Origin: Dictyostelium discoideum
Lineage: Eukaryota
NCBI GenBank assembly: GCA_000004695.1
Contig: CM000154.2
Span: 1,216,001 to 1,280,000, forward strand
Direction: 5' to 3'
DNA: 64,000 nucleotides
The stretch's first letter is position 1. Each line of letters opens with the position of its first letter. Shown one piece after another: positions 25,132 through 63,590 of the stretch. The notes under the pieces were generated by a model, which did no database searches, was not told where the DNA came from, and worked only from the letters and a program-made list of their open reading frames with translations. Made by a program: the position numbers and the translations under genes.

Positions 25132-28100
25132 GGGCCTTCATTTAGGATTAAATTTATATGGGAAAAATATAAATATAAATTCAAAGAAATCATTGGGTAG
25201 TAAATTGGAAGTGGAATCCCAAACCGTTACAAGGGTCCAACCGAATAGACCAAGTAGTAATTTAATTGGTAATTTAATATCAGTGAATAAATATTTCATA
25301 TCTTACATTATAAAGGGTGAAAAGGTTAGAATATTGGATAAATCAAGTGCAACTAAAATCTTGTTAAAAGAGTTTCCAGACGTAATAGATATTCAATTTC
25401 ATAGTGAAAATGTAAACATTTTGTCATGTTGTAGTATGTCTGATGGTTGTATTTACATTTATGAAATCGTTAATAATGGTGAATCTATAAATGCAAAATT
25501 ATTATCAAAAATTAAACAACAACCACAACCACAACCACAACCACAACCACATGGTAGTTCATCATCATCATCATCATCATCTTATTATACAACTGTTAAA
25601 TGGCATCCAACTAAAAATGATACATTATTAACTTGTACAAATGATTCAAAATTGGTTTATGCTTTTAATATAAATCAACCTGATACACCATTATTCATAT
25701 TGGATCCAACAACTGGAAATATTCCAACTGGTTTATGTTGGTTCGTACAAGAGTCACCATTCAATGCTAGTGGTAATGTTTTTGAAAAATCATCAATTTT
25801 AATTGCAAATGGTGATATTTGTATTTTTAATCAACAACAACAACAACAACCAAATATTTATCAATTAGAGAGTACATATAGTAGTATTAATGGTAGTGAT
25901 GGTAATAATTTAGATTTCTTATTTGTTAATCATATCAATTTCGATACAATTGTTGGTGTTACAAGACAATCTGAAATTTATTTATTTAATAGACAATTTT
26001 CGGTGATTCAAAAGATTACCTTTTCAAATAATCTATTTTCAATTTGTTCATTATTATCAATTAAAGATTCATTTTTATTCATCTCTGATAGTAATAGTTC
26101 AAAAGCATATATAATTCATATAAACTCTGGTAAAAAAGATAAATCAAATGATATTATTGGTGATGGTAGTGATGATAAAGATGCTATAAATAGTTTAGAT
26201 GGTGATAATAATAATAATATCAATAGTAATAATAATAATAATAATAATAATGAAGATAATGGTGGTGATGAATATCCACATTTTGATTATATTAATGAAT
26301 GTGATTTTAAGAAACCAATTATTAGTTTTTGTTTTCAATCAACACCAATAATAAATAAGAGTACAAGTACCAATAGTTTATCATCATCAACTCAATCACA
26401 ACAAACTTATCAACATCAACAAGAGAAAACAATATTTAGTGCTTGTACAATTCAATCACATTCAGTTTTACTTCATTCAATTTCTTTAGATACTTATTAT
26501 GCTGAAAATGATCAATACTCTGTCAATTCACTTGAAAATGATGTTGTCGAACAATCTGGTTTATATTTAGATTCTTTAAATAGTATTAATGGTAATAATA
26601 ATAATAATAATAATAACAACAACAATAATAATAGTAGTAATGTTGGTGGTAATAAAAATAATGGTGTTTTATCACCAACTAGCAGTACAAATGCAACCAT
26701 TGGTAGTGAAGATGATGATATTAATAAGATAATATTATTAACACCAAAATCATTCACCCCTTCATCACCACCGCCATTATCATTACCTGAACCCGATTTA
26801 TCATCAAGTCCGACATCTGATGATCCAATATTTGGTAATGTTGTCAGTGGTAAGGGTGTAGTTAATAATAATACTACCACCACAACTTCTGAAAAACCAA
26901 AGAAAGAGCCTTCTGCTGCAAGAAATTTGAAAAAGAAAACAAAATCAAAAGAGAATGAGTCAAATAGTACTACTACTGCTGCTGCTGCCACTAACACTAG
27001 TGGTAATAATTCAACACCATCTTCAAGTAGTTCTTCACCAAATGGTACAAATTCCACAACACCATCAACTACAGTATTATCTCCACCATTGTTGGTTAAT
27101 ACAACTGATGATCAATCAGGGTCAACTTCACCAGCAAGTATTAAAAAAGTGAAACCAAAAACTTCAACTACAAAGGTCACCTCTTCAAGTTCAAATGAAT
27201 CATTAAATACTTTAGATACCAAAGAAAAAGAGAAAGAAAAAGAAAAAGAAAAAACACCAACTAAACTAATTAAATCTACAACAACGACAACAACAACTAC
27301 ATCAACCACAACAACTCCATCAGCCACAACACCAACCACAACAACACCAACCAAAAAGACTCCATCATTTGTTGCCCCACAATTAGTTATACCTTTAACT
27401 AATCCAGCTTCAAAATTAACACCATCAAAATCATTATCATCAACTAATGTTAACTCTGTACCAACTTCATCAACATCACAATCATCGTCAACAACAGCAC
27501 CAGCACCAATAACTACAACAACAATGACAACTGCAACAAATACATCTCCATCCTTGTCACCTCCAACTACTGCTAATTCAACTTCTACCACTTCAAATAT
27601 ACCATCATCATTTTTCTTTTCACCAACTGAAACTAATCAAGATCATATTAACACAAATGCACCATTACCAGTACTACCACCACCACCACTATCACCACCA
27701 CAACAACAACAACAAACTTCATCTCCAACAACAACAACAGCAGCAACAACAACTTCAAATTCAAATTCACAACCAATTCAACAATCAAATTATACATCAA
27801 ATAATATTCAACAATTATTTATGGAAATGGAAAATAATTTATTTAATAGATTAGAGAGATCAATGGCAAATCAATTTGCACAACATGAAAAAGAAAGAAT
27901 TGAAAGAGAGGCAATGGAGAAGGAAAGACATGAAAAACTTTTAACAATTGTTCATCAATCAATTACAACCATGATGAAGAGTAATCTCGAAAAGATTGTA
28001 AAGAAAGAGATTGCAGCAACATTTGTAAATTTAGAGAAAACTTTACCAACTACAGTTGAACAAACCATTGGTAAGATTGCACAAGACCAATTAAAGAAAT

Positions 28101-29197
28101 TATCAGTTAAAACTGATACACTTTTGAAATCATCATCAGAGGCAATCGTTTCAAACGTTAAACAATTGATTTGTTCAGACATTTTCGAAGGTTTGTTAAA
28201 GAACCAAATGGAAACCATTTTCATAAGTTATTTCCAAAGTATTTTAATACCAGGCTTTGAAAAATCTTGTCAATCCATGTTTAAACATTTAAGCTATACA
28301 TTTGAAAATGGTTTCAATCAAGCAATTCAACATCAAACTTTATCATCTCAAGGTCAACATTTAGCTTTAGAAAAGATTTTAAATGAAGGTAATACAGTAA
28401 TTAAACAATGTACAACTCAATTGGTTGAACAACAAGATCAATTATTAAAAGAATTTAAAAAACAACAACAACAACAAAATCAACAACAACAACAAAATCA
28501 TCAACAACAAAATCAACAACAACACCAACAACAACAAAATCAACAACAACAACAACAACAACAAATGTCACAAATGCCACCACAATTCCAACCTTTACAT
28601 CATGGTCCAACTGGTTTTTATCCTTTCCCACCACCACCTCATTCACCATTAAATAATCAACAACAACCACAAACACCACCACAACAACAACAACAACTAC
28701 AACAATCACAACCACAACCACCACCACAACAACAACAACAACAACAACAACAACAGCAATCACAACCACAACAACAAACTCAACAACAACAACAACAATT
28801 AATTAATCAAAAATTATCAGCTTACCCACAACTTAAAGCATTAGTAGAGACAAGTTATATCGATGCATTTAATTTTGCATTGAACGCATCAAATCTACAA
28901 ATGGTAGTTAGTCTTTGTTCATGTTTAGATCCATACACAGTTTTCTCTTCAAATAAATTCCCACAAACAATAATTTTATCATTGATTCAACAATTATCAA
29001 TCAATTTGTATACTGATACTGAACTTAAATTAAAATGGATCAAAGAGTGTTTATTCGTGGTCGATAATAGTAAGGCTGATGTCACTAAGAAGATTTTAAA
29101 CGTTTTGAAAAATAAATTGGATGAACATCAAAATTCAAATCCAAATTCAAATTCACACCTTCTTCAATCAATTAAATATATAATTAAAGATATTTAA
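25132..29197 (+). CDS. EDC4/Ge-1-like protein, exon 2 (WD40 N-domain, Ser/Thr/Pro-rich linker, conserved C-terminal helical domain)
   Basis: A phase-compatible acceptor AG at 25130-31 follows a T-tract; the alternative AG at 25125-26 pairs with the 24915 donor. WD-like repeats occur near the N-terminus (TTVKWHPTKNDTLLTCTNDSKLVYAFN). The C-terminal region aligns with human EDC4: LIPGFEKSCQSMFKHLSYTF vs VLPAFEKSCQAMFQQINDSF, and MVVSLCSCLDPYTVFSSNKFPQTIILSLIQQLSINLYTDTELKLKWIKECL vs LVLYVCETVDPAQVFGQPPCPLSQPVLLSLIQQLASDLGTRTDLKLSYLEEAV. The stop is at 29195-97. Confidence 0.75.
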
Positions 29198-30730: not shown

Positions 30731-31063
30731 ATGATTTCACAATGTCGAAATTTGAATAAAACAATTCAAAGATTGTCATTGCCATCAAATATATTTAGAT
30801 TACAGTATTTTTCAACAACAACCTCTAGCACAATTCCAAAAGTAACCAACAAGAAATTAAAAGTAACAATAAAAAATAAAGATAAATTGGATATCCCATT
30901 AAATAATTTTGTTAATAATAAAGATAATAACAATGGACCATCACTAAAAATCAATTATGTTGGTGGTGAACTTGAAAATAATCCAACAACATCATCATCA
31001 TCACCTGTACAAACATCTTCAAAATCATCACCACAATCTACAACAACATTTAAAAATAATAAT

Positions 31064-31135
<72 letters not shown>

Positions 31136-33001
31136 TATAATAATAATAGTAATGAAAATAATTCATCAACATTTGTATCATCACATTATAAAGTAAATGA
31201 AGAATCAATGTTATCATATTTAGATAGAAAGAAATTAGTATATAAAATAATTGGTAAACAAATCATTGTTAAAGAGTGTCCATTATGTCATGATACAAAA
31301 GGTAAATTTGATAATTTTTGGAAATTATATATTTCAAGAGAAACAGCTGCTTTCTTCTGTCATAGATGTGGTTGTAAAGGTTCATGGATTGATTTAAAGG
31401 TAAATTTAGGTGATTTATCATTAGATCATTCAAATCATAAACCAATAATAAAATCACCAACAACAACATCAACAAATAAAACATCAAATAATGAAACTGA
31501 AGAATCAACAATTAGTATTGCAGATTTAAAAAAGATGTTAAATTATTCAAATGAATTAAATAATCATCAAGATGTAATAAAGAAATTAACAGGTAAAGAA
31601 AAAGGGGAGAGAGGATTATCAAAAGAGGTATTAGAATTTTATAAAGTTGGTGTAACAAGTCAACAATTCTTTTTTAATGATGAATGGCAAGAACATAAAT
31701 GTATAACATTCCCATGGACTACATTGGATAAAAAAGGTAATATTCAAGTACATCGTTGTAAATTAAGATCAACCAAAGAGAAATCATTACAAAGAATTGA
31801 ACCAAAAGGTGGTAAATGGGGATTCTTTGGTTGGCATACAATACCATCCGATGCAAAGGAGATTATCCTAACAGAGGGTGAATATGATGCAATGGCAGTT
31901 TATCAAGAAACTGGTATTCCCACAATTTCATTACCAAATGGTGCAAATAGTTTACCAATTGCTCTATTACCCCTATTGGAAAGATTTGAAAAGATTTATC
32001 TTTGGATGGACGATGACGTACCCGGTATGGAAGGTGCTGCAAAATTCTCAGAGAAATTAGGAATTCAACGTACTTTTATAGTTTCAACCAAACAAAATGA
32101 TCCAAATGGTCCAAAAGATGCAAACGATGCATTATTGGCTGGCAAAGATTTAAAAGCGATTTTATCAACAGCTGCCAATATACCACATGATCAAATTTGT
32201 GATTTCAGTGATGTAAGATCAATAATACATAATGAATTAAAGGATCCTCTATCGGTTATTGGTAAACAAAGTAAATGGTTCCCTTCATTTAATAAAGTTT
32301 TAAAAGGTCATAGAAAGGGAGAGTTAACCATTTTCTCTGGTCCAACTGGTATTGGTAAAACAAGTGTATTATCCCAATTATCTTTGGATTTCTGTTCACA
32401 GGGTACTAGAACACTTTGGGGTAGTTTTGAATTAAAAGTACCAAGATTGGCCAGAAAAATGTTATCACAATTTTCAAATTGTAATTTAGATAAACATGTT
32501 GAAAATTATCAAGAAATAGCAGACAATTTCTCAAATATGCCAATGTATTTCCTTAGATTCTTTGGTTCAACTCAAGTTGATAAAGTAATAGACGCTATGG
32601 AATATGCTGTTTACGTTCAAGATGTTGAACATATAGTTTTAGATAATTTACAATTCATGTTGGGTTCTCAAGCTAAAGGTATTGAAAGATTTGAAATTAT
32701 GGATGATTCAATTGAAAAACTTCGTAAATTCGCTTCTCAAAAAAATGTACATATCACTTTAGTAATTCATCCAAGAAAACAAGATATCGATCAAGTACTA
32801 AACATTAATGATATCTTTGGTACTGCTAAAGCTACTCAAGAAGCTGATAATGTTATCATTTTACAAAATTCTAAAAATAATCAACGTTATTTAGATATTA
32901 AAAAGAATCGTTTCTCTGGTGATCTTGGTATAATTCCTTTATCTTTTGAAAAAGAAACAAATAGATTTAGTGAATCAAATGAATTTGATAATAATAATTT
33001 A

Positions 33002-33038
<37 letters not shown>

Positions 33039-33044
33039 TAAATT

Positions 33045-33049
<5 letters not shown>
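30731..33049 (+). CDS. Twinkle-type mitochondrial DNA primase-helicase (T7 gp4-like): Zn-finger primase, TOPRIM and DnaB-like helicase domains; single exon
   Basis: ATG at 30731. The N-terminus (MISQCRNLNKTIQRLSLPSNIFRLQYFSTTTS) has the basic/hydroxylated look of a mitochondrial presequence. A CxxC...CxxC zinc ribbon is present (CPLCHDTKGK...CHRCGCKG). A TOPRIM-like segment follows (ILTEGEYDAMAVYQETGIPTISLPNGA...LWMDDDVPG). The helicase carries Walker A GPTGIGKTS and Walker B HIVLDNLQFM, plus an arginine-finger region; this is the same architecture as T7 gp4 and Twinkle. A poly-Asn insert lies near the N-terminus. Confidence 0.85.
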
Positions 33050-40710: not shown

Positions 40711-42656
40711 CTAATTATTTTTAGAAATGTCAACAATTTTAGATAGTGTTGCAATTGCCATAACTCTTGAGTCTTTATCAGAATCGGATTGAGATACTTC
40801 AAATAAAAATTGAGCAATATCTTCAATTTCATCAGTGTAGTCTTGATCAATAACTGACTTTGTAATTGTCTCTCTATAGAATACTCTTGATAGTGAATAA
40901 AGTAATGACCTTCTCACATTTGAATCTCTATGTGATTTAAATGACCACAAAAATCTAACCAACTCTTTTGATATCATTCTAGTATCATTTGAATTACCTG
41001 CACATTCAACAATAACACCCAATGTATGAATTAATCTACTTAATAAAAAACTATCATATCCCATCATCATCTCACCACCACTAGCACCACCTTCATAACA
41101 TTGAGTAACTTTATCAAATCCACTTAATAATGGATAAAAATAAATTTTTACAAATTTATGGAATCTATTTGATTTTATTATTGGTCTAGGTGTCTTTCTT
41201 TGTCCCCATTTTCTAACAATACCAATTTGTTTTAAAATTGGTAATTTACTACTTTCACCACTACCACCACCACCATTAATATTAAATATACTATTTTTAG
41301 ACTCTTCATACTGTTGTTGTTGTTGTTCTTGTTGTTGTTGTCTTTGAGTATTTTGTTGATAATTTAAAGCTGATAATTCTTTAGCAGATTCAGAGATTGT
41401 TTCCAAGATTTCAATTCTTTGACCAATGCTAAAATTCTTTTGTTTGAAAGCATCAGTGAGATAAGGAATTACTAATGAAGTTGATTGAGTTGCTAAGGAA
41501 ACTAATGATTCATGACGAATTGATGAGAATGATTCTAAATCATATTCATTTGTTAAATGAATTAATGAATTTGCAAGTTGTACACTTAATTCATCTAAAT
41601 CATCAGGTAATGACCAAACTATATTTGATATTGAATTTAATGCATTCTCCCATGACTCTGCTGTATGTTTTTGACTTTGTAATTCTAATAAACAGTCTCT
41701 TAAATATATCTTTTTTTTAATACCATTTAAATCTGATTCATCATCATCTAAATCATATGGTTTTAAATCATCATCATCCTCATCCTCCTCCTCATCTTCT
41801 GAATTGATTTCTGTAATTTTTGGTCCATTTTGTACTACTTCTTCATCTTCATCTTCATCTTCATCTTCATCATCTTCATCATTCATAATTTTATCAGGAT
41901 CATCATATTTTTTAAATTCTTTTTCTAATAATTTTTTATAATGTTCTTTTGAGCTATTTGATTGTTTTTTTTCATTTCCAATATTTGATGATGCTGTACT
42001 GTTGCTTGTTGTATTGGTGGTGGTAGTGGTATTGGTGGTCGTTAAAGGTTCTTGAAAAATTGGTTTAAAATTTAAAGAAAAACATTGTTGATCAGGTGTA
42101 TCTAGTGAATAGTTGAATTTTAATGGTTCTGATGAATTATTATTATTATTATTATTATTAAATAATTTTGAAAATTGTTCAGCTACAAACATACCACGAT
42201 TATTTATATTTGAAATTGTAAATTTTAAATGTACATCAATACCACTTAATAATAAATGTTTAATATGTTCAATCTTATCTGATGGTAATGGTTTAATAGT
42301 TGATGTTGATGTTGAATTTGCTATTGATAATTTTTCAATAAAAAAAATTATTGATCTTGTAATATAAGAATGTTGCTCATTTGTACAATGTCTAATAAAG
42401 TAAGGATCTTTCCATGATTTTAATAAATTATTTAAAATTAAAAATAATAATGGTTCTTTATCTTCATTTGTACTACCTTCAAATAATAGTATAGAATAAA
42501 GTAAATCTAAATAACAATTTTGACTATTATTATCCATTACTTTTAAAATTAATATTTTATTTATCATTATATGTACAATCATTGAAATTTCATTTCTTCT
42601 TTTAAAAATTTCTAAAAATATTAATTTAAAAACATCTTTATATATATTATAACTAA
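40711..42656 (-). CDS. Tel2/TELO2 (Clk-2)-like HEAT-repeat protein, exon 2 of 2 (acidic CK2-type linker and conserved C-terminal domain)
   Basis: An acceptor ag at 42658-57 follows poly-T; the phase matches exon 1. A central acidic block (DEDDEDEDEDEDEE) is followed by LKPYDLDDDESDLNGIKKKIYLRDCLLELQ...SWENALNSISNIVWSLPDDLDELSVQLANSLIHL. I recall this as similar to the human TELO2 segment SLDSDDDLKPYDMSGD...VRDCVEAL. The C-terminal helical region follows and the stop is at 40711-13. Family assignment is moderately confident. Confidence 0.5.
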
Positions 42657-48760: not shown

Positions 48761-51700
48761 ATGAAAATTATTTTTTTTATTTTTTTTATTTTTTTTTTTA
48801 TTCAATTGCTTTCAAACCGATATGTATTAGGTGAAAAATCAAATAATATTGATAATACTAAGGATGATAAATTAAGTCCTTTAAAACAAATATTACAAAA
48901 ACAAAGAAAACAAGCAGAAAATGAAAAGAATTTAATTAAAAATCTTGCAGAAATCATTTACACTGTGAAATCAATGGATCAATCACAATCTGAAACTGGT
49001 GATGTTTATATTGACCTATTCTTAGAGGATACCGATGGAAAGAATACTACAAAAATGGCAGAATCTATCTACAGTTTAATTGATACCTTGGAGAGATTCG
49101 ATATTGAAAAACGTCAATTACGATTAGAAAAAAAACAACGAAAACATAAACAATCTAAAACACAACAACAACAACTAGATTTAGTTAATGACAAATTCAT
49201 TTCAAAAAAATTACTGTCAATTGATATTGAAAATTTTGATTTTGAGAGAAATGTTGACAACAATCAACAACAACAAGATTTTGATATAATCGATCAAGAA
49301 ATCATTGATGGTTTACCAATAACTCATTATAAAGATGTTTATCTTCGAAATAAATTAATTTCAAAATCAGTTAATACTGACTCACAATCAAGTAATTCAG
49401 AAAATAATGAATCATCTTCAGTAGGTTTATCAATTGGTTCAACATCTTCACCAAACAGCTCACAAAAACCATCATTAGAATCGTCGTCAACAAACTCAAA
49501 ACCTCTTGAGCCACCCTCTCAAGAGTCACAAGGATCATCAGAAAATTCATCATCAATAGATTTATCTTCACAAGAATCTTACTCAAATGAACAGTCCTCA
49601 ATTGAGTCATTCTCACCAAGTTCCTCATCTAAAGAATCATCACAAGAATATTCTTCAAGTGAACCATCTCCTTCAAGTGGGCCATCATCATCATCATCAT
49701 TAAGTTCACAAGAATATTCTGCTGGTTCATCTTCAGTAAGCCTATCTTCAGTAGGTTCACACTCACAGGAATCTTCTGTAGGTTCATCTTTAGTAGGTTC
49801 ATCTTCTGTAGGTTCACAAGAATCTTTAGTAGGTTCATCTTCTGTAGGTTCACAAGAATCTTTAGTAGGTTCTTCTTCTGTAGGTTTACCTTCACAAGGA
49901 TCATCCTCAATAGATTCATCCTCACAAGAATCATCTTCAATAGGTTCAGTAGGTTCAACTTCACAAGAATCTTCAGTCGGTTCATCTTCACAAGAATCTT
50001 CAGTAAGTTCATTTTCAGTAGGTTCACCTTCACAAGGATCATCCTCAATAGGTTCATCCTCACAAGAATCATCTTCAATAGGTTCATCATCAGTAAGTTC
50101 ATCATCAAAAGGTTCGTCATCACAAAACAATGGACTAAGCTCTGAGCAACCTTTATCAGATAATGAATCAAATAGTGAATCAAACTCTTCACAATACATT
50201 TCAGAAAATGATTCAACTTCGTCATTACAAAATAATGACCCAAACTCATCATCACAAAACAATAATTCAAACTCTTTACAATCTGAATCTGAATCCTCTC
50301 AAAATGAATCAAATGAATCAAACTCTTTAGAAACCGAATCATCTTCAAATATTAAATCTAGTTCATCACAATCTGAAACATATCAATCAAGTTATGAATC
50401 TTCAAACTCATTTTCGTCTCAAAGTTCTGCTTTTGTATCATCTTCTTCTGAATCAAATGGTAGATCATCATCATCATCATCGTCATCATCCGCCTCCTCA
50501 TCATCATCATCACCAGAAGAACAATCATTTCCAATATCATCCTATTCAAATGATGAATGTGGAATTGAAGTTCAACAAATTATGTTAAAGAAATTAGGTA
50601 ATAATTTAGCATCATGGTCGATGAATATTATTAATTTAAAACCATTAATAGTTTTCGAACATATTTCAGTTTATAGAAAAGAGGCAATCACAAAACCAGA
50701 TAATTCAATTGGATATAATAAAGTGGATGTTTGGAATACCATTACTTCAAATGGTCGTCCTGAAGGAAAATTATTCTCATTTGTTTATATTGGAAATTTA
50801 GTTCCTGATAATTTCTTTATTTCTTGTGATAATAATACAACACCCCCAACTTTACCACCTACTCTATCACCAATTGATAATCATTTTTCATCATCTCAAC
50901 AACAATCCTCTTCACAATCCTCTTCATTTACACCATCCACATCTTCATCAACCCAAACTGAAGGATTAAAATGTAAATTGTCATATTCACAAAGAAGAAT
51001 TGGATATATTAGATTTGGAACTAAAATTAAATATATATGGTGGGTTGAAATTGCCAATAAAGGTGAAACAAGCATTGATAATCAATTATTTATTAAATTT
51101 GACCAAAATGTTGAAAATGTAAATGGATTAGATAAGGTTAATGTTGATGATGATAATAATAGTGAAGGTAGTTCAAGTATTGGAAGCAGTGATAGCATTA
51201 GAGATAGCATTAGTGATAGTGATAGTAGTGGTAGTGATAATAATATATATAAAGTTGGATCGAATGGTATACCATTAAGACCTGATAGTTTTTATGCATT
51301 TACATACTTTACACAATCAATTGTTCCAGCACAATTAGAATTTATAGATCATGATAATTGTGCTGAACCCATCGATTCGGGTAAACCATCACCAAATCAA
51401 CAAATTGGTACACCTGAAACTCAATGCTCAGCAGAAATTCATCAAGAGAAATTATCAACTAGTCTCACATTCTTTGGTTTCATTTCTTCATATGCTGTAA
51501 CAATTAAAAATACATCACCAGTTCAATCACTTTATGATTTAACAATCATATTTAAGAGTAGTATTAAAGAAGTAAATGGAATAGATCCATTAGTAATAAA
51601 TACATCAAGCTCAACAAATACTCAAATCTCTACAATCTCTGATTCAAATTATCAATTACCAGAATCATTACGTGTAATCGGTATAAAACCAAATCAACCT

Positions 51701-51912: not shown

Positions 51913-53691
51913 TTAAAATGATTGTGAAACTAAAAGAGTAGCGGTTGTACTATTAAAACCATTAAAACCAAGTAATGTTTCAAATAATTCAATTTTACTA
52001 GGTGTTTTGTCAGCCTTAATATTAAATATTACTGATAAGGAACTCTCGCCACTTAAAGGATCTGTAAAACCACTTCCAATAGCACCACTTGGACTAAACC
52101 ATGAACGTTTACCTCTTTGTAAGAGCATATATTTAGTGGTACCATCAGTATATGTGATTTTAATAGTATAATCACAACCATTTGCATGACAATACCATGC
52201 ATATTTACTAACATTTGGTCTAATGTCAACCAATTGAGTTGAATTGGTTGGATCAAAAAAGGGCATAAGATTTCCTTTTGATTTAAAAATTGGATAAATT
52301 TGAGAAAGGTTGGCTGGTCCAACAAAACTGTGAGTGATGATGATTGTGTAAACATCTACATTTCTTTCAATTGGAAGACCATCATTTATACCATAGAGAC
52401 CATTGCTCTTGGTGGATGGAGTATAGGTTTCATATTTAAGAGTTGTTGTATTCCACTTTTTGTAACCAGTGGAAAAGGATTTATCATAAATGATTGAATC
52501 TTTGAAATAGTTTTGAATGGTAACTTCTTCATAATCTGCAAACATTGAGTATCTATAGCCTTGGGCTTGGTTACCTGCACCACCTTGCATTACAGATTGT
52601 TTAACGCAATTTTTATTTTGATCCAATATAAAACTTTTATTACAATTTTTATATGCACCAATATTTGATGGAATATTTACACTTAAAAATTCATTATGGT
52701 TCATATCAAAACCCCATTCTGATCCGAGCAAGCTTCCATCTACATATGGATAATTTCCACTCTTGTAACTATCACCGGCATGGGGCAAACCATAGCTATG
52801 ACCGGCCTCGTGGATGAAAATACCAGTATAGGAATAGTCTCCGGTACCCACGGAACCACCTCCTAAGCCTCCCCAAGGATCTGCATATTTACCATTGGCA
52901 CCCAAGTGAATAAGTGGAGCATAGTAAAGAACTGATGATGGACCTTCACCATTTGCACCTCTAATTCCACTCAAAATACCCAAAACGACACTCATAATCT
53001 CATAACCATCTCTTTTTTGGTCAGAGTTGGTTATTCTTAAACCTGGTAAATTATTTCTACCAGCTGGTAAAATTAAGTATGACCAATCAATTCTGGAAAT
53101 TGGGTGATTAAGTGCATTCAATGATGACAAAGACCATTTTTGAATTAATTCATCTGAAACATCTTTAGATATTGAACCAGTTACAGAGAGTGGTTGAGTA
53201 TTGGTATCGTTTGCACCAAATAAATAGAATGGAAGAAGCCACATATTTAAATTTGTTTCATGACCAATGTTTGGGAAAAAGAATTCAGATTTCAAGAGCA
53301 TAGTTGAAAATTGAATTTTCATTTTTGGTTTCATCCAATCTTTTGGAATTCTTATACTATGATGAACAGTGGAATATTTGGTACCATTGGATTCTGTTGG
53401 TGGCAATTTACTTGGATCATTAAGTGTTAATTTTCCCATTAATGAATCATCAACCCAAACTTTAACAGTATAGGAAAGAGTTTGATCTTGAAATTTGGCT
53501 AATAACAAAGACTCTCTGTTTGGAAGAATTTTTAATGTTACAGTATTATTTTTCCAACTTTTACCTTCAATTGGAAGTACATGTGTATTGGCAAATTTAA
53601 TATCACTGACTTGTAATCTTGAAGAACAGACTGCGCAATTAATATTTGTAATTAAATTTAAAAAAACTAATAAAATAATTAATATTTTCAT
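51913..53691 (-). CDS. Dictomallein-type secreted zinc metalloprotease (peptidase family M66, StcE-like); single exon, 592 aa
   Basis: A signal peptide MKILIILLVFLNLITNINCA is followed by the M66 zinc-binding motif GIFIHEAGHSYGLPHAGD (HExxHxxGxxH). Dictyostelium has a small dtml family of such proteins; which paralog this is cannot be told from the sequence. I take the start at 53691 from the ORF track; my own count put the ATG at 53690-88, so the boundary is +/-1. Confidence 0.7.
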   Translation of the reverse strand: MKILIILLVFLNLITNINCAVCSSRLQVSDIKFANTHVLPIEGKSWKNNTVTLKILPNRESLLLAKFQDQTLSYTVKVWVDDSLMGKLTLNDPSKLPPTESNGTKYSTVHHSIRIPKDWMKPKMKIQFSTMLLKSEFFFPNIGHETNLNMWLLPFYLFGANDTNTQPLSVTGSISKDVSDELIQKWSLSSLNALNHPISRIDWSYLILPAGRNNLPGLRITNSDQKRDGYEIMSVVLGILSGIRGANGEGPSSVLYYAPLIHLGANGKYADPWGGLGGGSVGTGDYSYTGIFIHEAGHSYGLPHAGDSYKSGNYPYVDGSLLGSEWGFDMNHNEFLSVNIPSNIGAYKNCNKSFILDQNKNCVKQSVMQGGAGNQAQGYRYSMFADYEEVTIQNYFKDSIIYDKSFSTGYKKWNTTTLKYETYTPSTKSNGLYGINDGLPIERNVDVYTIIITHSFVGPANLSQIYPIFKSKGNLMPFFDPTNSTQLVDIRPNVSKYAWYCHANGCDYTIKITYTDGTTKYMLLQRGKRSWFSPSGAIGSGFTDPLSGESSLSVIFNIKADKTPSKIELFETLLGFNGFNSTTATLLVSQSF

Positions 53692-57821: not shown

Positions 57822-58782
57822 TTAATTTAATTGAAAATAATCTTGATTATCATCTTCATCCTCTAAAGGTAATTTATCAATTAAAGAACGAATGTAATTT
57901 GAATTTTTTGGATCAAGATCCAAAGCGGTATTTAAAGAATCTAAAGCTTTATCGAGTTCGCCCAATTGTTTATAACATTTACCTAAAAGAATGTAGATTG
58001 GAGTTTCTTTTGGTTCAATTTCTTTAAACTCTAATAATTGATCGATAGCATGATGATATTGTTGATTTGCAAAGAGGAAGGCAGCTAATTTGAATTTTGC
58101 AAAGGTATTCTTTGGTTGAATTTCAATTGAACGATATAGCATATCAATACCGTCTTGAATTTTATTTGGATTATGTTGTAGGGTCATACCTAAATAACAA
58201 CATAACACCGAACTGGACTCATTGATTGATAATGCTTTTCTAAAATGATACTCTGCTAAATTGTATTTCTCTTGACGATAATAAATCAATCCAATGCCAT
58301 AGAAGGCATTGTAATGACGTGGGTCACATCTAATGGCCATTCTAAATGCATTCAATGCTAACTCCAACTCGTCGTTCGCTAAATATTCATGACCACATAA
58401 TGTATAGGCATAGGTCATGTCTGGATCCAATTGAATGGCTCTTCTAAACAATTTGATTGCAGCTTCATGATCACGTTGTAAACTGAAACAATTGCCTACC
58501 ACTACCCAAGAGTAGGGTGACAATCTATCGAATTCTGAATATTTATGTGCAATATAACTTAATTCTGCATCTTCATTCATTTGCCATAACAATGTTGAAT
58601 ATAATTCCATACCCTCTAATCTATATGGTTCCATTTGTGATACCTCTTGAAATATTGATCTTGCCTCTTTATAATCAATTAATTCATGATATGCTTTTGC
58701 TACTTTTGTTAATACCCATCCAGTTCTATATTGTTCTTCTGATAATCTTTTAAATGATTCAATTGCTTCTTTACATAAATAT
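57822..58782 (-). CDS. anapc3: Anaphase-promoting complex subunit 3 (CDC27/APC3), exon 2 of 2 (C-terminal TPR array)
   Basis: Acceptor attaaag at 58784-83. It encodes (L)YLCKEAIESFKRLSEEQYRTGWVLTKVAKAYHELIDYKEARSIFQEVSQMEPYRLEGMELYSTLLWQMNED...WVVVGNCFSLQRDHEAAIKLFRRAIQLDPDMTYAYTLCGHEY...RHYNAFYGIGLIYYRQEKYNLAEYHFRKALSINESSSVLCCYLG... This is collinear with human CDC27 (WCAAGNCFSLQREHDIAIKFFQRAIQVDPNYAYAYTLLGHEF...RHYNAWYGLGMIYYKQEKFSLAEMHFQKALDINPQSSVLLCHIG). The stop is at 57822-24. Confidence 0.9.
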
Positions 58783-58867
58783 CTTTAATATATTAAAATA
58801 AATTTTTTTTAATTATTAGATTAGATACTTTTTATAAAATTATTTTAAAATATATATATACACATAC

Positions 58868-60436
58868 AAACAAAGTAATCTATAAGAATCTGCTAAAATA
58901 AAAAATAATTCTAATAGTTGAGTTTGACCTTTATGTAATTCAATTAAACCTTCATATAGATCACCACCATTGAAATCCAAAATTGAAGATTCATCAAATT
59001 CATAGAAATTTGGTTGAACTGAATTATCAGTAATATTTAATTGATCATCCTCTTCTAATTCTAATTCGTCAATAGATTTATTATGATGATGGAGATGATG
59101 ATGTTGTTGATAATGATGGTTTTCTTCATCATAATCATCATCACTTAATGAAGATGATAAACTTTTTAAACTAAATTCTTCAGTTTTACCAAAATTAACT
59201 TGTTTCTTTGTTTTTGTTAATAAAACCTCTTTATCTGTAATTGATGTTGTTGTTGTCGTTGTTGTTGTTGTTTGTTGTTTAGTTTGTTGTTGTTGTTGTT
59301 GTTGTTTTGATGTTGATGAAGTAAATCCATGGACATCACTACTTGTTGATGTTGTAAATATTGGACTCTTTAAATCAAGTGACATTGGTGTATCAAATTC
59401 ATTACTCATAGATTTCTTTATCATTTGAGATGGTGGTGCGCTCTTTTTATGTTGATGTGGTTGTTGTTTCTGATGATGATGAACACCTGGAGTTGAAGGT
59501 GTGTATGGAGTTTGACTATTGCTAGAAGGGGGATGTTGTGATCCTTTACTGTCAGGTGTATCCATAACCATTGGTATTGGATCTACAACATTTTGAGAAA
59601 ATCTATTTGAAAGTATTGGTGTTATATGAGAAAGTGGTGTTTGTGGTGTAACGAAATATCGATTATTATATTTTTGTAGATTTTGTTGTGATGGTTGTTG
59701 TGGCTGTTGTTGTTGTTGCTGTTGCTGTTGTTGATTAGTTTGTTGAATAGATGCTTTAAAATTAATTGGTGTAATATGTATTGATGAATCATAAAATGAG
59801 GAAGGTGTTAAACCAACTCTATGGTTTGGATGATATGGCGGTTTTATAAAATTATTTGGTTTAATTGTATTCGTTGTTATATTTGTTGTACCTGTAGCTA
59901 CTGTTGATGTGATAGTTTGTTCATTATTTTTATTACTGCTATTATTATTATTAATATTGTTATTATTGTTGTTATTATTATTATTATTATTATTAACTTT
60001 ATTTTGATTTAAGCTATTTGATAAATATTGTTGAAATTGTTGATGTTGTTGATGTTGTTGTTGATTTAAATGATTAATTTGATGAATTAAATTTGTATGG
60101 GAGAATAAGTCAGAGATATCAATTTCGTCGGGACATATATTACATAATTGCTCAAAAGCTACCCATAGGAATGGATAGGTGTAAACTGATTTTTTCAAGT
60201 ATTTAATTGCTTTCTCTTTTTGATTCTTTCTCTTTGATATTAATCCCATTAAATAATAAACTGATCCAATGCTACAAGGAGAATCAAAGCCATATGATAT
60301 ACTATTTATATCAACTATATCATCAAATTCACAAAGTATATCACTATAAATACCATAATATTCATTTTCATTATTGTTGCTATTGCTATTGTTATTGCTA
60401 TCATTATTTTTATTACTATTGTTACATTTATCTTTG

Positions 60437-60511
<75 letters not shown>

Positions 60512-60819
60512 GGTTGAAAATATTTTTCAAAATATATACAACATTTAATAATTGATGATTCAGCTTCTTGAATATTACCAAGATCATAATTTGATAATGC
60601 TAATAGATATAGGTTCTTTATCATTGTAATTTGAGGATGTTGTTGAAGTATTAATAAACATTGATTTATTTTACCCATTTGATAATAGATTTGAGCTATT
60701 TTAAAAAGGTTATCTTCATTGGCTGTTGATGCATATAATCTCTCTGAAAGAAATAATGCATTCTTTATTAATCCACAATGTATTGATTCATCAATACTTT
60801 GAATCATTATTTCTTCCAT
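58868..60819 (-). CDS. anapc3: CDC27/APC3, exon 1 (N-terminal TPRs, long Asn/Gln/Ser-rich disordered insert)
   Basis: ATG at 60819. It encodes MEEIMIQSIDESIHCGLIKNALFLSERLYASTANEDNLFKIAQIYYQMGKINQCLLILQQHPQ... Human has AIWQALNHYAYRDAVFLAERLYAEVHSEEALFLLATCYYRSGKAYKAYRLLKGH. The donor GTATGT at 58867-62 is phase 2 and the intron is 85 nt. The spliced protein is about 970 aa. Confidence 0.85.
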
Positions 60820-60985
60820 TTTTTTTTTTTTTTTTTTTTTTCTTAAAAATTTAATTATTTAATAATAAAATAAAAAATAAAAAATAAATATTATTTTATA
60901 TTAATTGTTTGACAATCGTTAAACCTTTTATTTATCTTGAAAAAAAATTAAAAATTAGAAAAAAATTTTTTTGTTGTTTATATTA

Positions 60986-61034
<49 letters not shown>

Positions 61035-61133
61035 GGGGTTATCCTTTTTTTTTTTTTTTTGTATTTAAATTTTAATTTTTAAAACAGTTGAGCATTTTGG
61101 ATAATAAAAAAAAAAAAAAAAAAAAAATTAAAA

Positions 61134-61298
61134 ATGGAAAATAAAGAAGTACAATTTAACAAAGATAAATCGTTATACAGTAATAGTGATATAAGGCAAA
61201 ACAATAAGAATGATGTTGTAATTACAACCAATTTTCATAATAGCAATAATTACGATCGTTCATATAAAAATAATAATAATAATAGTGATAATAGTGAT

Positions 61299-61335
<37 letters not shown>

Positions 61336-61512
61336 GCAATATTAATATAAACTATGTATCTAACAATCCAAATAGTAATAAATATTCAAATAGTAGTAAA
61401 CTGGAAATAAGGAATAATCATAGATCCACTCCCTATGATAGACCAAATAATAATAAATATAATGTAAAAACAACATACACTCAAAACTTTAACCCTACAA
61501 ATAATAATAATG

Positions 61513-61572
<60 letters not shown>

Positions 61573-62219
61573 TTAATATTAATAATGGAAATACACACTA
61601 TAATAGCAAATACTATAACCAAAATAATAATAATGAAAATAAAGAAAATAAAGAAAATAATAATAATAATAATTTTAATAATAAAAAATTAAATGTTGTA
61701 TCATTACCATCAGTTTTAAAGAATCAAAAAGAAACTGATGAAGAAAAGATTAAACAAAGACAAAAGCAAATTGACTTTGGTAAAAATACAATTGGTTATG
61801 ATAATTATATTCAGAGAGTACCAAAAGATAAAAGAGATAGAATACATCCAAGAACACCTGACAAATATCAAAAATGTTCAAGAAGGTCTTGGTTAGGTCA
61901 AATTAAAATTTGGAGAAAAGCATTACACAAATTTGATCCAAATAAAAGTGATAATGATAATGAAGATAGTGATAATGATAATTATATTGATAACGATAAT
62001 GAAGATGATAATCTTAAAAATGAAAAAGATGAAAATATCATAAAAATTAAAAAAGTACATGATAAAGATTATGAAATTGATGAACAATTAACACCACCAC
62101 CACCACCACCACCAAAAATAATAGAAAAGAAAAAGGAAGAAGAAGAAGAAGAAGAAGATTATGAAATTGAATCACTTGAGGAGAATCAAGAATTTTTAAG
62201 ACAATTATTAACAAAATAA
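61134..62219 (+). CDS. Histone RNA stem-loop-binding protein (SLBP) homolog; single exon, 361 aa
   Basis: ATG at 61134. Most of the protein is poly-Asn low complexity, but residues ~195-260 read [63 protein letters not shown]. This is collinear with the human SLBP RNA-binding domain [71 protein letters not shown] stretch and an acidic tail follow. Confidence 0.75.
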
Positions 62220-62381
62220 AATTTAATTATTTATTTTCCAATCTTTTAAAAAAGAAATAACAATATATTTTTCTTTTTTTTTTTTTTTATTTTATTTTAT
62301 TTTTATTTTATTTTCTATTGTTTGTTTCTTATTAACTGATACCAGTGAATATCAATATTCTTTTTTTTTCTTTTTTTTTTT

Positions 62382-63589
62382 CTAATCAAAATTTGATTCA
62401 TCAACAGAATAAGATTCTTGAATTAAAACTATTTTCTCTTGATCATCTGCATAATGTTCAATATATTGAACATTATTTTTAGCATGAAAATCATTTAATA
62501 AAAAGTTTGCAACACAAGTTCTAGTTTCTGATTGATATTTACCATCTTTCCAAAGTATAATTGTATTATCCAATGAACCCGTTGCAATTGAATTATCACT
62601 TAATATTGATACGCAAGTTATAGATTCAGTATGACCTTTCATATCACCAATAAATGTTGGACGTACTGGTAATTTTAATTTATTTTTATTATTATTACTA
62701 TTTGAACTATTTAAACTATTAATACCATTATTATTATTATTATTATTATTACTATTACCAATACTACCACTTAAACTAAAAGCACCATAAAAACTATTAC
62801 TTAAACTTTGACCACTACCACTATTTTGATTCCCATTAAAACTACTATTAAGATTATTATTACTATTAGTATTACCATTATACATTATTTCATGAGGCCA
62901 ATTCCAAACTGAAACTCTTGAACCTGCCCAAGTTAAAATTTTAGTATTATTATATAATGTGATTGCACCATTAATTTCTATATAATTTGAATCCTCTTTT
63001 GAAGAGGGTGAAAATTCTAACATTGTACTACCACCTTTTGTAGTATCGAATATACTAAAACCCTTATTAATTGTTGCCAATAAGAAATCACCTGAACAAA
63101 TTGGAAATAAATAATTGATTGAATTTTTACAATGTTGTTGATAAAGTGGTGATAATGTTTTTGAACACCATACAATGATAGTTTGATCTTTTGAGCCTGT
63201 TACGAATCTGTCATTTGAGATATTGAATAAACTAGTGACAATATCTTTATGAGTTATATCTGATTGACCCAATGTTTTCGCGGTTTTATTCTCTTGATCG
63301 TATTGATAAGCTATTAGAAATGGTGATGATGGTCCTGCAACAATTATGAAATTGTTTACACAAAGTATACCATGAGTATACTCTTTTTGGATTCTAGCTA
63401 TACTTCTTTTAAATTCACCTTCTTCACTCCAAACTATAATATCATCATCATTTGAAATCGAACAAAATCCACCTGGTATCTTTTCTAAAAATTTTAAACT
63501 CTTTTCATGTTTCTCTAATGTTTTTAAACATTCTAATTGATGTGATTTATTTTCTTCATTATAAATTGGTATTTTATTTAAATCCCACA

Positions 63590-63590
<1 letters not shown>
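62382..63590 (-). CDS. WD40-repeat protein, last exon
   Basis: The acceptor ag at 63592-91 precedes ATGTGGGAT. Joining to the upstream exon gives ...SGSMDKKIK|MWDLNKIP, a textbook WD-repeat end (DxxIKxWDL), which supports the splice. It encodes further WD-like units (IIVWSEEG, TIIVWCSKT, SVWNWPHE, TIILWKDGK) and an Asn/Ser-rich insert. The stop is at 62382-84. Confidence 0.65.

What the first reader, a model, noticed from the sequence alone, without database searches (positions are those of the whole stretch)
61134..62219. SLBP (histone mRNA stem-loop-binding protein) homolog with a well-conserved RNA-binding domain embedded in poly-Asn sequence
The 60-aa segment [63 protein letters not shown] matches the metazoan SLBP RBD almost residue-for-residue. 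This includes the TPNK phosphorylation motif position (TPDK) and YSRRSW. SLBP normally implies replication-dependent histone mRNAs that end in a stem-loop rather than poly(A). Its presence makes it worth checking the 3' ends of histone genes in this genome.
Basis: partly seen in the sequence, partly recalled or inferred. Interest (0 to 1): 0.6.

Follow-up and report, generated by a model that had tools for sequence, protein, structure and literature searches.

The report
Dictyostelium histone stem-loop-binding protein gene

Summary
Window 61134-62219 (+) is an intact single-exon ORF of 361 aa. Residues 201-269 match Pfam SLBP_RNA_bind end to end (110.7 bits against a cutoff of 27). The modelled domain superposes on human SLBP from the ternary complex (target-normalised TM 0.95, RMSD 0.6 Å). 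The base-reading arginine (R251, human R181) and the Thr-Pro phosphosite (T241-P242, human T171) are conserved.

The window is D. discoideum: a neighbouring ORF is identical to AX4 DDB_G0288219. The gene is syntenic with its D. citrinum ortholog and under purifying selection (dN/dS 0.11 in the domain).

The window has no histone gene and no stem-loop. All eight dictyostelid H2A(X) genes I fetched carry a canonical histone 3' stem-loop, with compensatory stem changes and the recognised G invariant.

Identity to animal SLBPs is about 60%, not "almost residue-for-residue". The segment is 63 aa, not 60. The motif reads CSRRSW, not YSRRSW.

It is already known. The D. discoideum SLBP homolog is cited in a 2008 paper, and D. 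discoideum histone stem-loops are attributed to Dávila López & Samuelsson 2008. Whether dictyostelids use U7-type cleavage is still untested.

The parts
61134..62219 (+). Complete single-exon coding sequence of the D. discoideum SLBP (histone RNA hairpin-binding protein) ortholog, 361 aa plus the TAA stop
   Evidence: ORF list. End-to-end alignment with the D. citrinum ortholog, 81% identity. The same 361-aa product is called in GCA_054883475.1. That locus is 99.8% identical to the window, with 0 mismatches and 1 gap.
61134..61727 (+). N-terminal low-complexity region (aa 1-198), 44% Asn with runs of N19 and N11. It evolves fast and has length differences between species.
   Evidence: Composition. 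dN/dS 0.47 against D. citrinum, with indels confined to the Asn runs. No Pfam match.
61428..61442 (+). Short motif TPYDR (aa 99-103). The (T/K/D)PYxR pattern is conserved in all five full-length dictyostelid orthologs inside otherwise unalignable sequence. Function unknown.
   Evidence: Alignment A1.
61734..61940 (+). SLBP RNA-binding domain (aa 201-269). Three helices are predicted at aa 203-217 (A), 220-228 (B) and 250-265 (C).
   Evidence: PF15247, 110.7 bits, full profile. AlphaFold model with pLDDT >90 for 70 residues. Foldseek against 4QOZ_C: target-normalised TM 0.95, RMSD 0.6 Å, 58% identity. dN/dS 0.11.
61794..61808 (+). Helix B segment GYDNY (aa 221-225). It occupies the position of the D/E-R motif (human AYDRY, fly AYERY) that is needed for U7 snRNP recruitment but not for RNA binding. 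Here the motif reads D-N.
   Evidence: Alignments. Role of the motif from PMC5435866. D-N is the majority state in 29 of 39 homologs, including insects and a mite.
61854..61865 (+). TPDK (aa 241-244), the equivalent of the human TPNK motif whose Thr171 phosphorylation raises RNA affinity 7-11-fold.
   Evidence: Alignment to 4L8R_C. T and P are invariant in 39 of 39 homologs. Role from PMC10388802.
61875..61892 (+). CSRRSW (aa 248-253). R251 is the equivalent of human Arg181, the only residue that makes base-specific hydrogen bonds, to the G at the second position of the stem. Cys replaces human Tyr178.
   Evidence: Alignment. R in 37 of 39 homologs; C in 17 of 39, including every dictyostelid aligned. 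Role from PMC10388802.
61941..62012 (+). Acidic Asp/Ser/Asn-rich tail directly after the domain (aa 270-293, [24 protein letters not shown]). It sits where the 'processing domain' lies in human SLBP (an acidic 20 aa) and in Drosophila SLBP (alternating Asp and phospho-Ser).
   Evidence: The sequence itself. The HMMER alignment extends into the fly ...KDSNSDS tail. Role of this region from PMC5435866. An acidic tail is present in all dictyostelid orthologs.
62166..62216 (+). C-terminal motif [17 protein letters not shown] (aa 345-361). The pattern LEENQxLLxxLL is conserved across dictyostelid orthologs. Function unknown, possibly a partner-docking helix.
   Evidence: Alignment A1.
62215..62220 (+). 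AATAAA overlapping the stop codon, the likely poly(A) signal of the SLBP mRNA itself.
   Evidence: Read from the sequence. Its function is inferred.
60820..61133 (.). A 314-bp A/T-rich intergenic region shared with the divergently transcribed anapc3 (APC3/CDC27) gene; presumed bidirectional promoter. It contains a lone G/C island, GGCGGGG, at 61032-61038, flanked by an A run and a T run.
   Evidence: Sequence. GGCGGG is conserved in D. citrinum while the surrounding sequence is not. anapc3 (DDB_G0288223) is RblA-repressed. The E2F-like reading is inference only.

Best explanation

RNA recognition. The three-helix domain at aa 201-269 should clamp the conserved 6-bp, 4-nt-loop hairpin in the 3' UTR of histone mRNAs. 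R251 would read the invariant G at the second stem position. Phosphorylation of T241 in the TPDK motif would probably tighten binding, as it does in animals. The domain, these residues and the cognate RNA element are shown here. Binding itself and phosphorylation are inferred by homology.

Downstream role. Once bound, the protein would couple histone mRNA fate to DNA replication through 3'-end formation, stability and translation. The acidic tail after the domain sits where animal SLBPs carry their processing domain. It may recruit a cleavage machinery to a purine-rich element downstream of the hairpin. This step is inferred and only weakly supported. The literature reports that D. discoideum histone mRNAs carry both stem-loop and poly(A) signals, so SLBP may act on transcripts that can also be polyadenylated.

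Flanking regions. The Asn-rich N-terminal half is a fast-evolving low-complexity spacer typical of this genome.
For: Family membership: PF15247 at 110.7 bits against a cutoff of 27, with full profile coverage. PDB hits are to SLBP chains only, at E about 1e-25. The AF2 model superposes on 4QOZ_C at target-normalised TM 0.95 and RMSD 0.6 Å, and no non-SLBP fold scores below E=6.

Key residues: T241-P242 are invariant and R251 is nearly invariant across 39 homologs. Their roles come from PMC10388802.

Functional gene: dN/dS is 0.11 in the domain against 0.42-0.47 in the flanks. The order anapc3(-)/SLBP(+)/next gene(-) is conserved in D. citrinum. The same product is called in an independent D. 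discoideum assembly.

Cognate RNA in the lineage: RF00032 hits lie downstream of 8 of 8 dictyostelid H2A(X) genes on the coding strand, at 28.3-40.4 bits; six reach the gathering score of 34, one scores 33.7 and one 28.3. There are no other Histone3 hits in about 150 kb of window and loci scanned. The stem is 100% paired, 2 of 6 pairs change on both sides, and both basal G-C pairs are invariant.

Other components and literature: the 3'hExo ortholog eriA exists in D. discoideum and is RblA-repressed with S-phase genes. The D. discoideum SLBP homolog is cited in PMC5054213. The related slime mould Physarum has two SLBPs, Lsm10, Lsm11 and stem-loops on most histone mRNAs.
Against: There is no experimental evidence for RNA binding, phosphorylation or a role in processing in any dictyostelid, either here or in the papers I could read.

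I examined only one histone class, H2A/H2A.X, and not in the AX4 genome itself.

The helix-B processing motif reads D-N rather than D/E-R. That is common among homologs, so it is uninformative rather than negative.

I neither sought successfully nor found U7 snRNA, Lsm10, Lsm11 or FLASH in dictyostelids.

In D. cf. discoideum and D. firmibasis the hairpin lies 203-220 nt after the stop codon. From my own knowledge, that is much further than is typical in animals (a few tens of nt). AATAAA or ATTAAA motifs occur both before and after it.

The downstream CAAAGA element was found post hoc, it is absent as such from group-4 Dictyostelium, and an upstream control window also shares a hexamer in 5 of 8 species.

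The N-terminal half contains no tryptophan at all. The vertebrate translation-activation (SLIP1-binding) motif, which as I recall depends on a Trp, therefore does not appear to be present (by sequence inspection).
Confidence: 0.88

Rival explanations
1. The same protein and the same RNA target, but without animal-type U7-dependent cleavage. In this reading Dictyostelium histone mRNAs are polyadenylated downstream of an internal hairpin. SLBP would act only as a 3'-UTR regulator of translation or stability, as SLBP-family proteins do on polyadenylated histone mRNAs in trypanosomes or in the Drosophila germ line.
For: The literature reports both stem-loop and poly(A) signals on D. discoideum and Physarum histone mRNAs, and poly(A)+ forms for all expressed Physarum histone genes. 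The hairpin lies 203-220 nt from the stop codon in the species closest to the window, and poly(A)-signal-like hexamers follow it. The papers I read report no U7 snRNA for Dictyostelium. T. brucei SLBP2 works through eIF4E2. Fly maternal histone mRNAs are polyadenylated in an SLBP-dependent manner (title and abstract of PMC11997800).
Against: The ACC(C/A) flank after the stem, where animal transcripts are cleaved, is conserved in dictyostelids. An acidic tail sits at the position of the animal processing domain. A purine-rich CAAAGA element lies at +10 to +13 in four species. Physarum has Lsm10 and Lsm11. A 3'hExo ortholog is co-regulated with S-phase genes. AATAAA-like hexamers are expected by chance in sequence that is 85% A+T.
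Confidence: 0.35
2. The SLBP-type domain has been re-used for a different RNA target, or for a job unrelated to histones.
For: The regions outside the domain share nothing recognisable with animal SLBPs and carry dictyostelid-specific motifs (PYxR and the C-terminal LEENQxLLxxLL). Tyr178 is replaced by Cys in every dictyostelid ortholog aligned.
Against: The exact cognate hairpin, with the G that R251 should read, is conserved by compensatory changes at dictyostelid H2A(X) genes and occurs nowhere else in the DNA I scanned. The RNA-contacting residues are under strong purifying selection. Cys at that position is also found in 17 of 39 homologs.
Confidence: 0.04
3. A chance ORF, a pseudogene or an annotation artefact.
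For: None beyond the low-complexity flanks. One relative (D. dimigraforme, P0039) has a degenerate-looking gene model.
Against: The chance of an open frame this long is about 1e-15. dN/dS in the domain is 0.11. Orthologs with conserved synteny occur across dictyostelids. Two independent assemblies agree on the gene.
Confidence: 0.01

Closest known systems
Human SLBP/HBP (PDB 4L8R, 4QOZ: ternary complex with the histone stem-loop and 3'hExo)
   Same: The three-helix RNA-binding domain is 58% identical over 72 aligned columns and superposes at RMSD 0.6 Å. Arg181 corresponds to R251, and Thr171-Pro corresponds to T241-P242. An acidic stretch directly follows the domain.
   Different: The motif is TPDK rather than TPNK. 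Cys replaces Tyr178. Helix B reads D-N rather than D-R. The N-terminal half is an Asn-rich low-complexity region with no Trp, so there is no recognisable SLIP1-binding or translation motif and no SFTTP/KRKL-type degron (by sequence inspection; the motifs are recalled from my own knowledge). The C terminus carries a dictyostelid-specific LEENQxLLxxLL motif.
Drosophila SLBP (PDB 4TUW, 4TUX, 4TV0)
   Same: Both proteins have an Asp/Ser-rich acidic tail right after the domain, and the HMMER alignment runs into it. In the fly that tail is phosphorylated and essential for processing.
   Different: The fly protein ends shortly after its tail, whereas the Dictyostelium protein continues for about 70 more residues. 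Phosphorylation of the Dictyostelium tail is unknown. The fly has Tyr, not Cys, before SRR.
Physarum polycephalum PpSLBP1 and PpSLBP2 (PMC8600027)
   Same: This is another amoebozoan slime mould with SLBP-domain proteins, stem-loops on most histone mRNAs and co-occurring poly(A) signals.
   Different: Physarum has two SLBP paralogs. My search returned one full-length ortholog for each of five dictyostelid species, plus one degenerate model in a sixth (D. dimigraforme, P0039). Lsm10 and Lsm11 are reported for Physarum but were not examined for Dictyostelium.
Dictyostelid orthologs annotated 'histone RNA hairpin-binding protein' (Tieghemostelium lacteum, Heterostelium album, Cavenderia fasciculata, Polysphondylium violaceum; D. 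citrinum KAN0021900)
   Same: The architecture is the same: low-complexity N terminus, PYxR motif, SLPxxLKxQKETD lead-in, RNA-binding domain with CSRRSW, acidic tail and a C-terminal LEENQ motif. Synteny with anapc3 holds in D. citrinum.
   Different: They differ only in the length and composition of the low-complexity regions. The window protein is the longest, at 361 aa against 233-309 aa.
Xenopus SLBP2 and Trypanosoma brucei SLBP2 (SLBP-family proteins that do not act in processing)
   Same: They share the RNA-binding domain. They also show that an SLBP domain does not by itself prove a role in 3' cleavage.
   Different: Xenopus SLBP2 has Q-C at the helix-B motif and an unrelated, non-acidic sequence after the domain. 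The window protein keeps the Asp and has an acidic tail. T. brucei SLBP2 binds eIF4E2 through a central segment that is absent from other SLBPs.

Membership tests
SLBP / histone RNA hairpin-binding protein (Pfam PF15247 SLBP_RNA_bind) | Sequence match to the curated family profile above its gathering threshold, over the whole domain | tested here: met
   110.7 bits against a cutoff of 27, E 3.4e-32, profile positions 1-70 of 70 at aa 201-269.
SLBP / histone RNA hairpin-binding protein | Three-helix RNA-binding fold superposable on solved SLBP-RNA complexes | tested here: met
   AF2 model with pLDDT >90 for 70 residues. Foldseek against the PDB: 4QOZ_C target-normalised TM 0.95 and RMSD 0.6 Å; 4TUW and 4TUX target-normalised TM about 0.91. 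The next non-SLBP hit has E>6. The model was built from an alignment of family members, so it is not independent of the sequence evidence.
SLBP / histone RNA hairpin-binding protein | The arginine that makes the only base-specific contacts, to the G at stem position 2 (human Arg181) | tested here: met
   R251 aligns with Arg181. Arg is present in 37 of 39 homologs. Its role comes from PMC10388802.
SLBP / histone RNA hairpin-binding protein | Thr-Pro phosphosite of the TPNK motif (human Thr171) | tested here: met
   T241-P242-D-K. T and P are invariant in 39 of 39 homologs, and Asp at the third position is in fact the commonest state, in 22 of 39. Whether the residue is actually phosphorylated cannot be tested here.
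SLBP / histone RNA hairpin-binding protein | The cognate RNA element (6-bp stem, 4-nt U-rich loop, A-rich 5' flank, ACC 3' flank) is present in histone gene 3' UTRs of the same lineage | tested here: met
   RF00032 hits downstream of 8 of 8 dictyostelid H2A(X) genes, including D. cf. discoideum, at 28.3-40.4 bits (six reach the gathering score of 34). The stem is 100% paired, with 2 of 6 covarying pairs. I did not test the AX4 genome itself or other histone classes. The literature attributes D. discoideum histone stem-loops to Dávila López & Samuelsson 2008.
SLBP / histone RNA hairpin-binding protein | Direct high-affinity binding to the histone hairpin | not testable with these tools
   This needs EMSA or fluorescence polarisation with recombinant protein.
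Processing-competent SLBP (animal SLBP1 type) | Helix-B D/E-R motif required for U7 snRNP recruitment | tested here: inconclusive
   The window has D223-N224. The acidic residue is kept and the Arg is not. D-N is the majority state (29 of 39), including in insect and mite SLBPs. The requirement was mapped with a multi-residue mutant.
Processing-competent SLBP (animal SLBP1 type) | An acidic 15-20 residues directly after the RNA-binding domain (the 'processing domain') | tested here: met
   Residues 270-293, [24 protein letters not shown], are acidic with S-D pairs as in the fly tail. The same holds in all dictyostelid orthologs. This is a match of composition and position only.
Processing-competent SLBP (animal SLBP1 type) | Partner machinery: U7 snRNA, Lsm10, Lsm11, FLASH and a histone downstream element | tested here: inconclusive
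   The window and the loci have no U7 hit, but they cover only a small part of any genome. An HDE-like CAAAGA lies at +10 to +13 in 4 of 8 species, but it was found post hoc. I could not query Lsm10, Lsm11 or FLASH, because no usable close query sequence was available.
Vertebrate-type SLBP regulation | N-terminal Trp-containing translation-activation (SLIP1-binding) motif and an SFTTP/KRKL-type S-phase degron | tested here: not met
   Residues 1-198 contain no Trp, no SFTTP and no KRKL (sequence). The motif definitions come from my own knowledge, not from a tool. These features do not define the family.

The most novel reading that the evidence does not exclude
Dictyostelids may retain a complete animal-type cleavage system for histone mRNAs. 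In this reading the acidic tail of this SLBP recruits an as-yet-undescribed amoebozoan U7-like snRNP to a purine-rich element (CAAAGA, about 10-13 nt after the hairpin). The U7 5' end could then be predicted by complementarity and searched for in the genome. A second, smaller possibility is that SLBP is transcriptionally tied to the cell cycle. It would share a 314-bp bidirectional promoter with the RblA-repressed anapc3 gene, acting through the conserved GGCGGG box. That would differ from mammals, where (from my own knowledge) SLBP is regulated after transcription.
Probability: 0.3. Interest if true: 0.45.

Novelty: already known. Interest (0 to 1): 0.12.

Why it matters
SLBP outside animals shows that the hairpin-based system for histone mRNA 3' ends predates Metazoa. 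That point was made in 2007-2008 and Dictyostelium was one of the examples, so this finding adds no new biology. It gives a clean computational confirmation across eight dictyostelid genomes, with covariation in the hairpin. It also gives a residue-level map of what is and is not conserved relative to the animal proteins. And it turns up two small leads: an HDE-like element, and a conserved GC box in the promoter shared with anapc3. D. discoideum is a haploid, genetically tractable organism that lacks a G1 phase (PMC3386910). It would be a convenient system for asking whether U7-type cleavage exists outside animals and algae.

Tried and rejected
1. tblastn with H2A, H2B, H3 and H4 found nothing. 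Rfam found nothing at the gathering score or at E<=10.

2. Weak snoRNA-like Rfam hits at 49.2-50.5 kb (-) lie inside or antisense to a 1011-aa ORF and are far below threshold. I treated them as noise.

3. I tried to read Dávila López & Samuelsson 2008, Tan et al. 2013, Dominski et al. 2001 and the Marzluff 2008 review. None is held. I relied on papers that cite them.

4. I looked for the SLBP gene in the RblA-repressed gene table of PMC3386910. It is not in the part of the file that is held, which was cut when stored, so the result is inconclusive.

5. I searched the literature for neighbouring DDB_G identifiers to pin down the gene ID. Nothing turned up beyond DDB0169192.

6. I considered the helix-B D-N substitution as evidence against a processing role. 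I rejected that because D-N is the majority state among homologs, arthropods included.

7. I considered the CAAAGA element as proof of an HDE and downgraded it to a lead. It was found post hoc, the naive P of 3e-5 is uncorrected for the choice of hexamer or for phylogeny, and an upstream control window also shares a hexamer in 5 of 8 species.

8. I wanted Physarum Lsm10 and Lsm11 sequences as a close query for dictyostelid homologs, but no supplementary text is held. I ran no further search on a human query, which was unlikely to rank dictyostelid hits in the list.

9. I could not retrieve other histone classes (H3, H4, H2B, H1) from dictyostelids. Without a lineage-specific query, near-identical histones from other eukaryotes would fill the hit list.

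10. The protein search returned no D. discoideum entry for this gene, although other AX4 proteins from this window are in the collection. The gene turned up only through the exact-product look-up in a newer assembly. I could not view the AX4 or dictyBase annotation directly.
Full report
**Observation**

Window 61134-62219 (+) is an uninterrupted ORF of 361 codons plus a TAA stop. The window is 22.7% GC and the per-codon stop probability is about 0.09, so an open frame this long has a chance of about 1e-15.

It is 63 residues long, not 60. The N-terminal 198 residues are 44% Asn, with runs of 19 and 11. The C-terminal 89 residues are acidic.

**Domain**

Pfam SLBP_RNA_bind (PF15247) matches aa 201-269 over the complete profile (positions 1-70 of 70). 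The score is 110.7 bits against a curated cutoff of 27, with E 3.4e-32, and no other family matches.

Among PDB sequences, every hit with E below 0.01 is an SLBP chain: Drosophila 4TUX, 4TV0 and 4TUW at E about 5e-25, human 4L8R/4QOZ at 5e-23.

I built an AlphaFold model of aa 190-290 from an alignment of 39 family members. It has pLDDT above 90 for 70 residues and helices at aa 203-217, 220-228 and 250-265. It superposes on human SLBP from the phosphorylated ternary complex (4QOZ_C) at target-normalised TM 0.95, RMSD 0.6 Å and 58% identity. The next non-SLBP match has E above 6.

That is strong conservation, but "almost residue-for-residue" overstates it.

**Key residues**

[quoted passage not shown] Phosphorylation of Thr171 in the TPNK motif raises affinity 7-11-fold.

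In the alignment to 4L8R_C these residues correspond to R251 (in CSRRSW, aa 248-253) and T241 (in TPDK, aa 241-244). Across 39 homologs, Thr and Pro are invariant and the Arg is present in 37.

Cys at that position is invariant in dictyostelids and occurs in 17 of 39 homologs.

**Organism and gene model**

A neighbouring ORF (51916-53691, minus strand) is identical, residue for residue, to D. discoideum AX4 DDB_G0288219, dictomallein-1.

A D. discoideum assembly (GCA_054883475.1, a 5.29-Mb chromosome) calls a gene with exactly this 361-aa product. Its DNA matches the window with no mismatches and one gap over 4.9 kb.

The D. citrinum ortholog (KAN0021900) aligns from the first to the last residue at 81% identity, and the differences are concentrated in the Asn runs. 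The window and the D. citrinum contig are collinear over more than 13 kb at 82-84% nucleotide identity. Both have the order anapc3 (-), SLBP (+), next gene (-).

dN/dS against D. citrinum is 0.11 in the domain, 0.47 in the N-terminal region and 0.42 in the C-terminal region.

The window has no histone gene (tblastn). It has no Histone3 or U7 match at the gathering score or at E<=10.

I therefore fetched dictyostelid H2A(X) genes. The query carried the Dictyostelium-specific C-terminal tail quoted in PMC3380720. The loci came from eight species: D. cf. discoideum, D. firmibasis, D. purpureum, Tieghemostelium lacteum, Cavenderia fasciculata, Heterostelium album, Polysphondylium violaceum and Acytostelium subglobosum.

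- Rfam RF00032 (histone 3' UTR stem-loop) hits every one of them, on the coding strand, 59-220 nt after the stop codon or annotated CDS end.
- Scores run from 28.3 to 40.4 bits. Six reach the gathering score of 34, one scores 33.7 and one 28.3.
- No other Histone3 hit occurs in about 150 kb of window and loci scanned. That includes a divergent second H2A-like gene of P. violaceum and the 21-kb D. citrinum SLBP locus.
- The 6-bp stem pairs in 100% of cells. Two of the six pairs change on both sides (C-G to U-A, and U-A to A-U). Both basal G-C pairs are invariant, including the G that the Arg181 equivalent should read.

So the protein's cognate RNA exists in this lineage. I examined only one histone class, and not the AX4 genome itself.

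**How far the animal mechanism carries over**

PMC5435866 shows that two parts of SLBP that do not contact RNA are needed to recruit U7 snRNP. One is the D/E-R motif of helix B. The other is the acidic 15-20 residues after the domain, which in the fly alternate Asp with phospho-Ser.

The window protein has D223-N224 at the helix-B motif. It has an acidic Asp/Ser/Asn tail (aa 270-293) at the second position. D-N is the majority state among the 39 homologs, insects and a mite included, so it says nothing against processing.

Downstream of the hairpins, CAAAGA lies at +10 to +13 in four species and a near-variant lies at +19 in a fifth. That position and purine-rich composition recall my memory of the animal histone downstream element. 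However, I found it post hoc. It is reduced to AACAAA in group-4 Dictyostelium. An upstream control window also shares a hexamer in 5 of 8 species. I treat it as a lead.

Some observations fit poorly with a purely animal-like picture. The hairpin is 203-220 nt from the stop codon in the two species closest to the window. The literature also reports both stem-loop and poly(A) signals for D. discoideum and Physarum histone mRNAs.

A 3'hExo ortholog (eriA) exists in D. discoideum and is RblA-repressed along with S-phase genes. I could not examine U7, Lsm10, Lsm11 or FLASH.

**What is already known**

- PMC5054213 (2008) states that D. discoideum has an HBP/SLBP homolog, DictyBase DDB0169192.
[quoted passage not shown] It also describes two SLBPs, Lsm10, Lsm11 and stem-loops in Physarum.
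- Several dictyostelid orthologs are named "histone RNA hairpin-binding protein" in public databases.
- I found no experimental study of the Dictyostelium protein.

I could not map DDB0169192 to these coordinates with the tools. That link is an inference. It rests on the search returning one full-length ortholog for each of five other dictyostelid species.

**Verdict**

The proposed follow-up is positive in related genomes. The finding is already known and of low interest as a discovery.

The open question is whether dictyostelids perform U7-type cleavage or use the hairpin and SLBP only on polyadenylated mRNAs.

Noticed in passing
window 60820-61133, GC box at 61032-61038: SLBP and the APC/C subunit gene anapc3 (exons at 58840-60819 and 57822-58634, minus strand) are transcribed divergently from a 314-bp A/T-rich spacer. 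The only G/C island in the spacer, GGCGGG(G), lies between an A run and a T run. It is conserved in D. citrinum while the surrounding sequence is not. anapc3 (DDB_G0288223) is strongly RblA-repressed, so this may be an E2F-type box shared by both genes.
   Followed up: partly
L004 4581-4610, L006 4562-4591, L007 3628-3657, L008 3651-3680 (30 nt after each H2A stem-loop): A purine-rich CAAAGA element lies at +10 to +13 after the hairpin in four dictyostelid species. C. fasciculata has CAAAAGAA at +19, and group-4 Dictyostelium has only AACAAA. This is HDE-like, but it was found post hoc and is statistically weak.
   Followed up: partly
L002 4469-4688 and L003 4463-4665, compared with L004-L009: The histone hairpin is 203-220 nt from the H2AX stop codon in D. 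cf. discoideum and D. firmibasis. It is 59-128 nt away in the other six species; for two of those (D. purpureum, A. subglobosum) the distance is measured from the end of the annotated CDS, which does not finish on a stop codon. The longer UTRs are 85-87% A+T and contain long A runs.
   Followed up: no
window 61428-61442, 61701-61739 and 62166-62216: Three short motifs outside the RNA-binding domain are conserved across dictyostelid SLBPs but are not seen in the animal proteins: (T/K)PYxR, the SLPxxLKxQKETD lead-in, and a C-terminal LEENQxLLxxLL. Their function is unknown.
   Followed up: no
protein P0039 (D. dimigraforme): This 202-aa model contains only the second half of an SLBP domain, with damaged key motifs: the Thr of TPDK is missing and the sequence reads CLRRSW. 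It is followed by unrelated sequence. It is either a mis-modelled gene or a decaying copy.
   Followed up: no
L010 2804-3400 (P. violaceum): A second, divergent H2A-like gene (198 aa, with no H2A_C domain hit) has no histone stem-loop, unlike the main H2A gene of the same species. This fits a replication-independent variant.
   Followed up: no
window 49227-50508 (-): A cluster of weak C/D-box snoRNA-like Rfam hits (18-31 bits, all far below the gathering scores) lies inside or antisense to a 1011-aa ORF with no Pfam match. It is probably compositional noise.
   Followed up: partly
window 25193-29197, 30731-33049, 40711-42582, 51913-53691, 62382-63590: The rest of the window is ordinary D. discoideum gene content: EDC4/Ge-1-like, a Twinkle-like Toprim+DnaB helicase, TELO2, dictomallein-1 (M66 peptidase) and a WD40 protein. 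There are no tRNAs.
   Followed up: partly
protein collection: The large protein search returned no D. discoideum entry for this gene, and the exact sequence was reported as absent from the cluster collection. Yet the exact-product look-up found it in a D. discoideum assembly, and other AX4 proteins from this window are in the collection. This is a gap in the tools or collection, not biology.
   Followed up: partly
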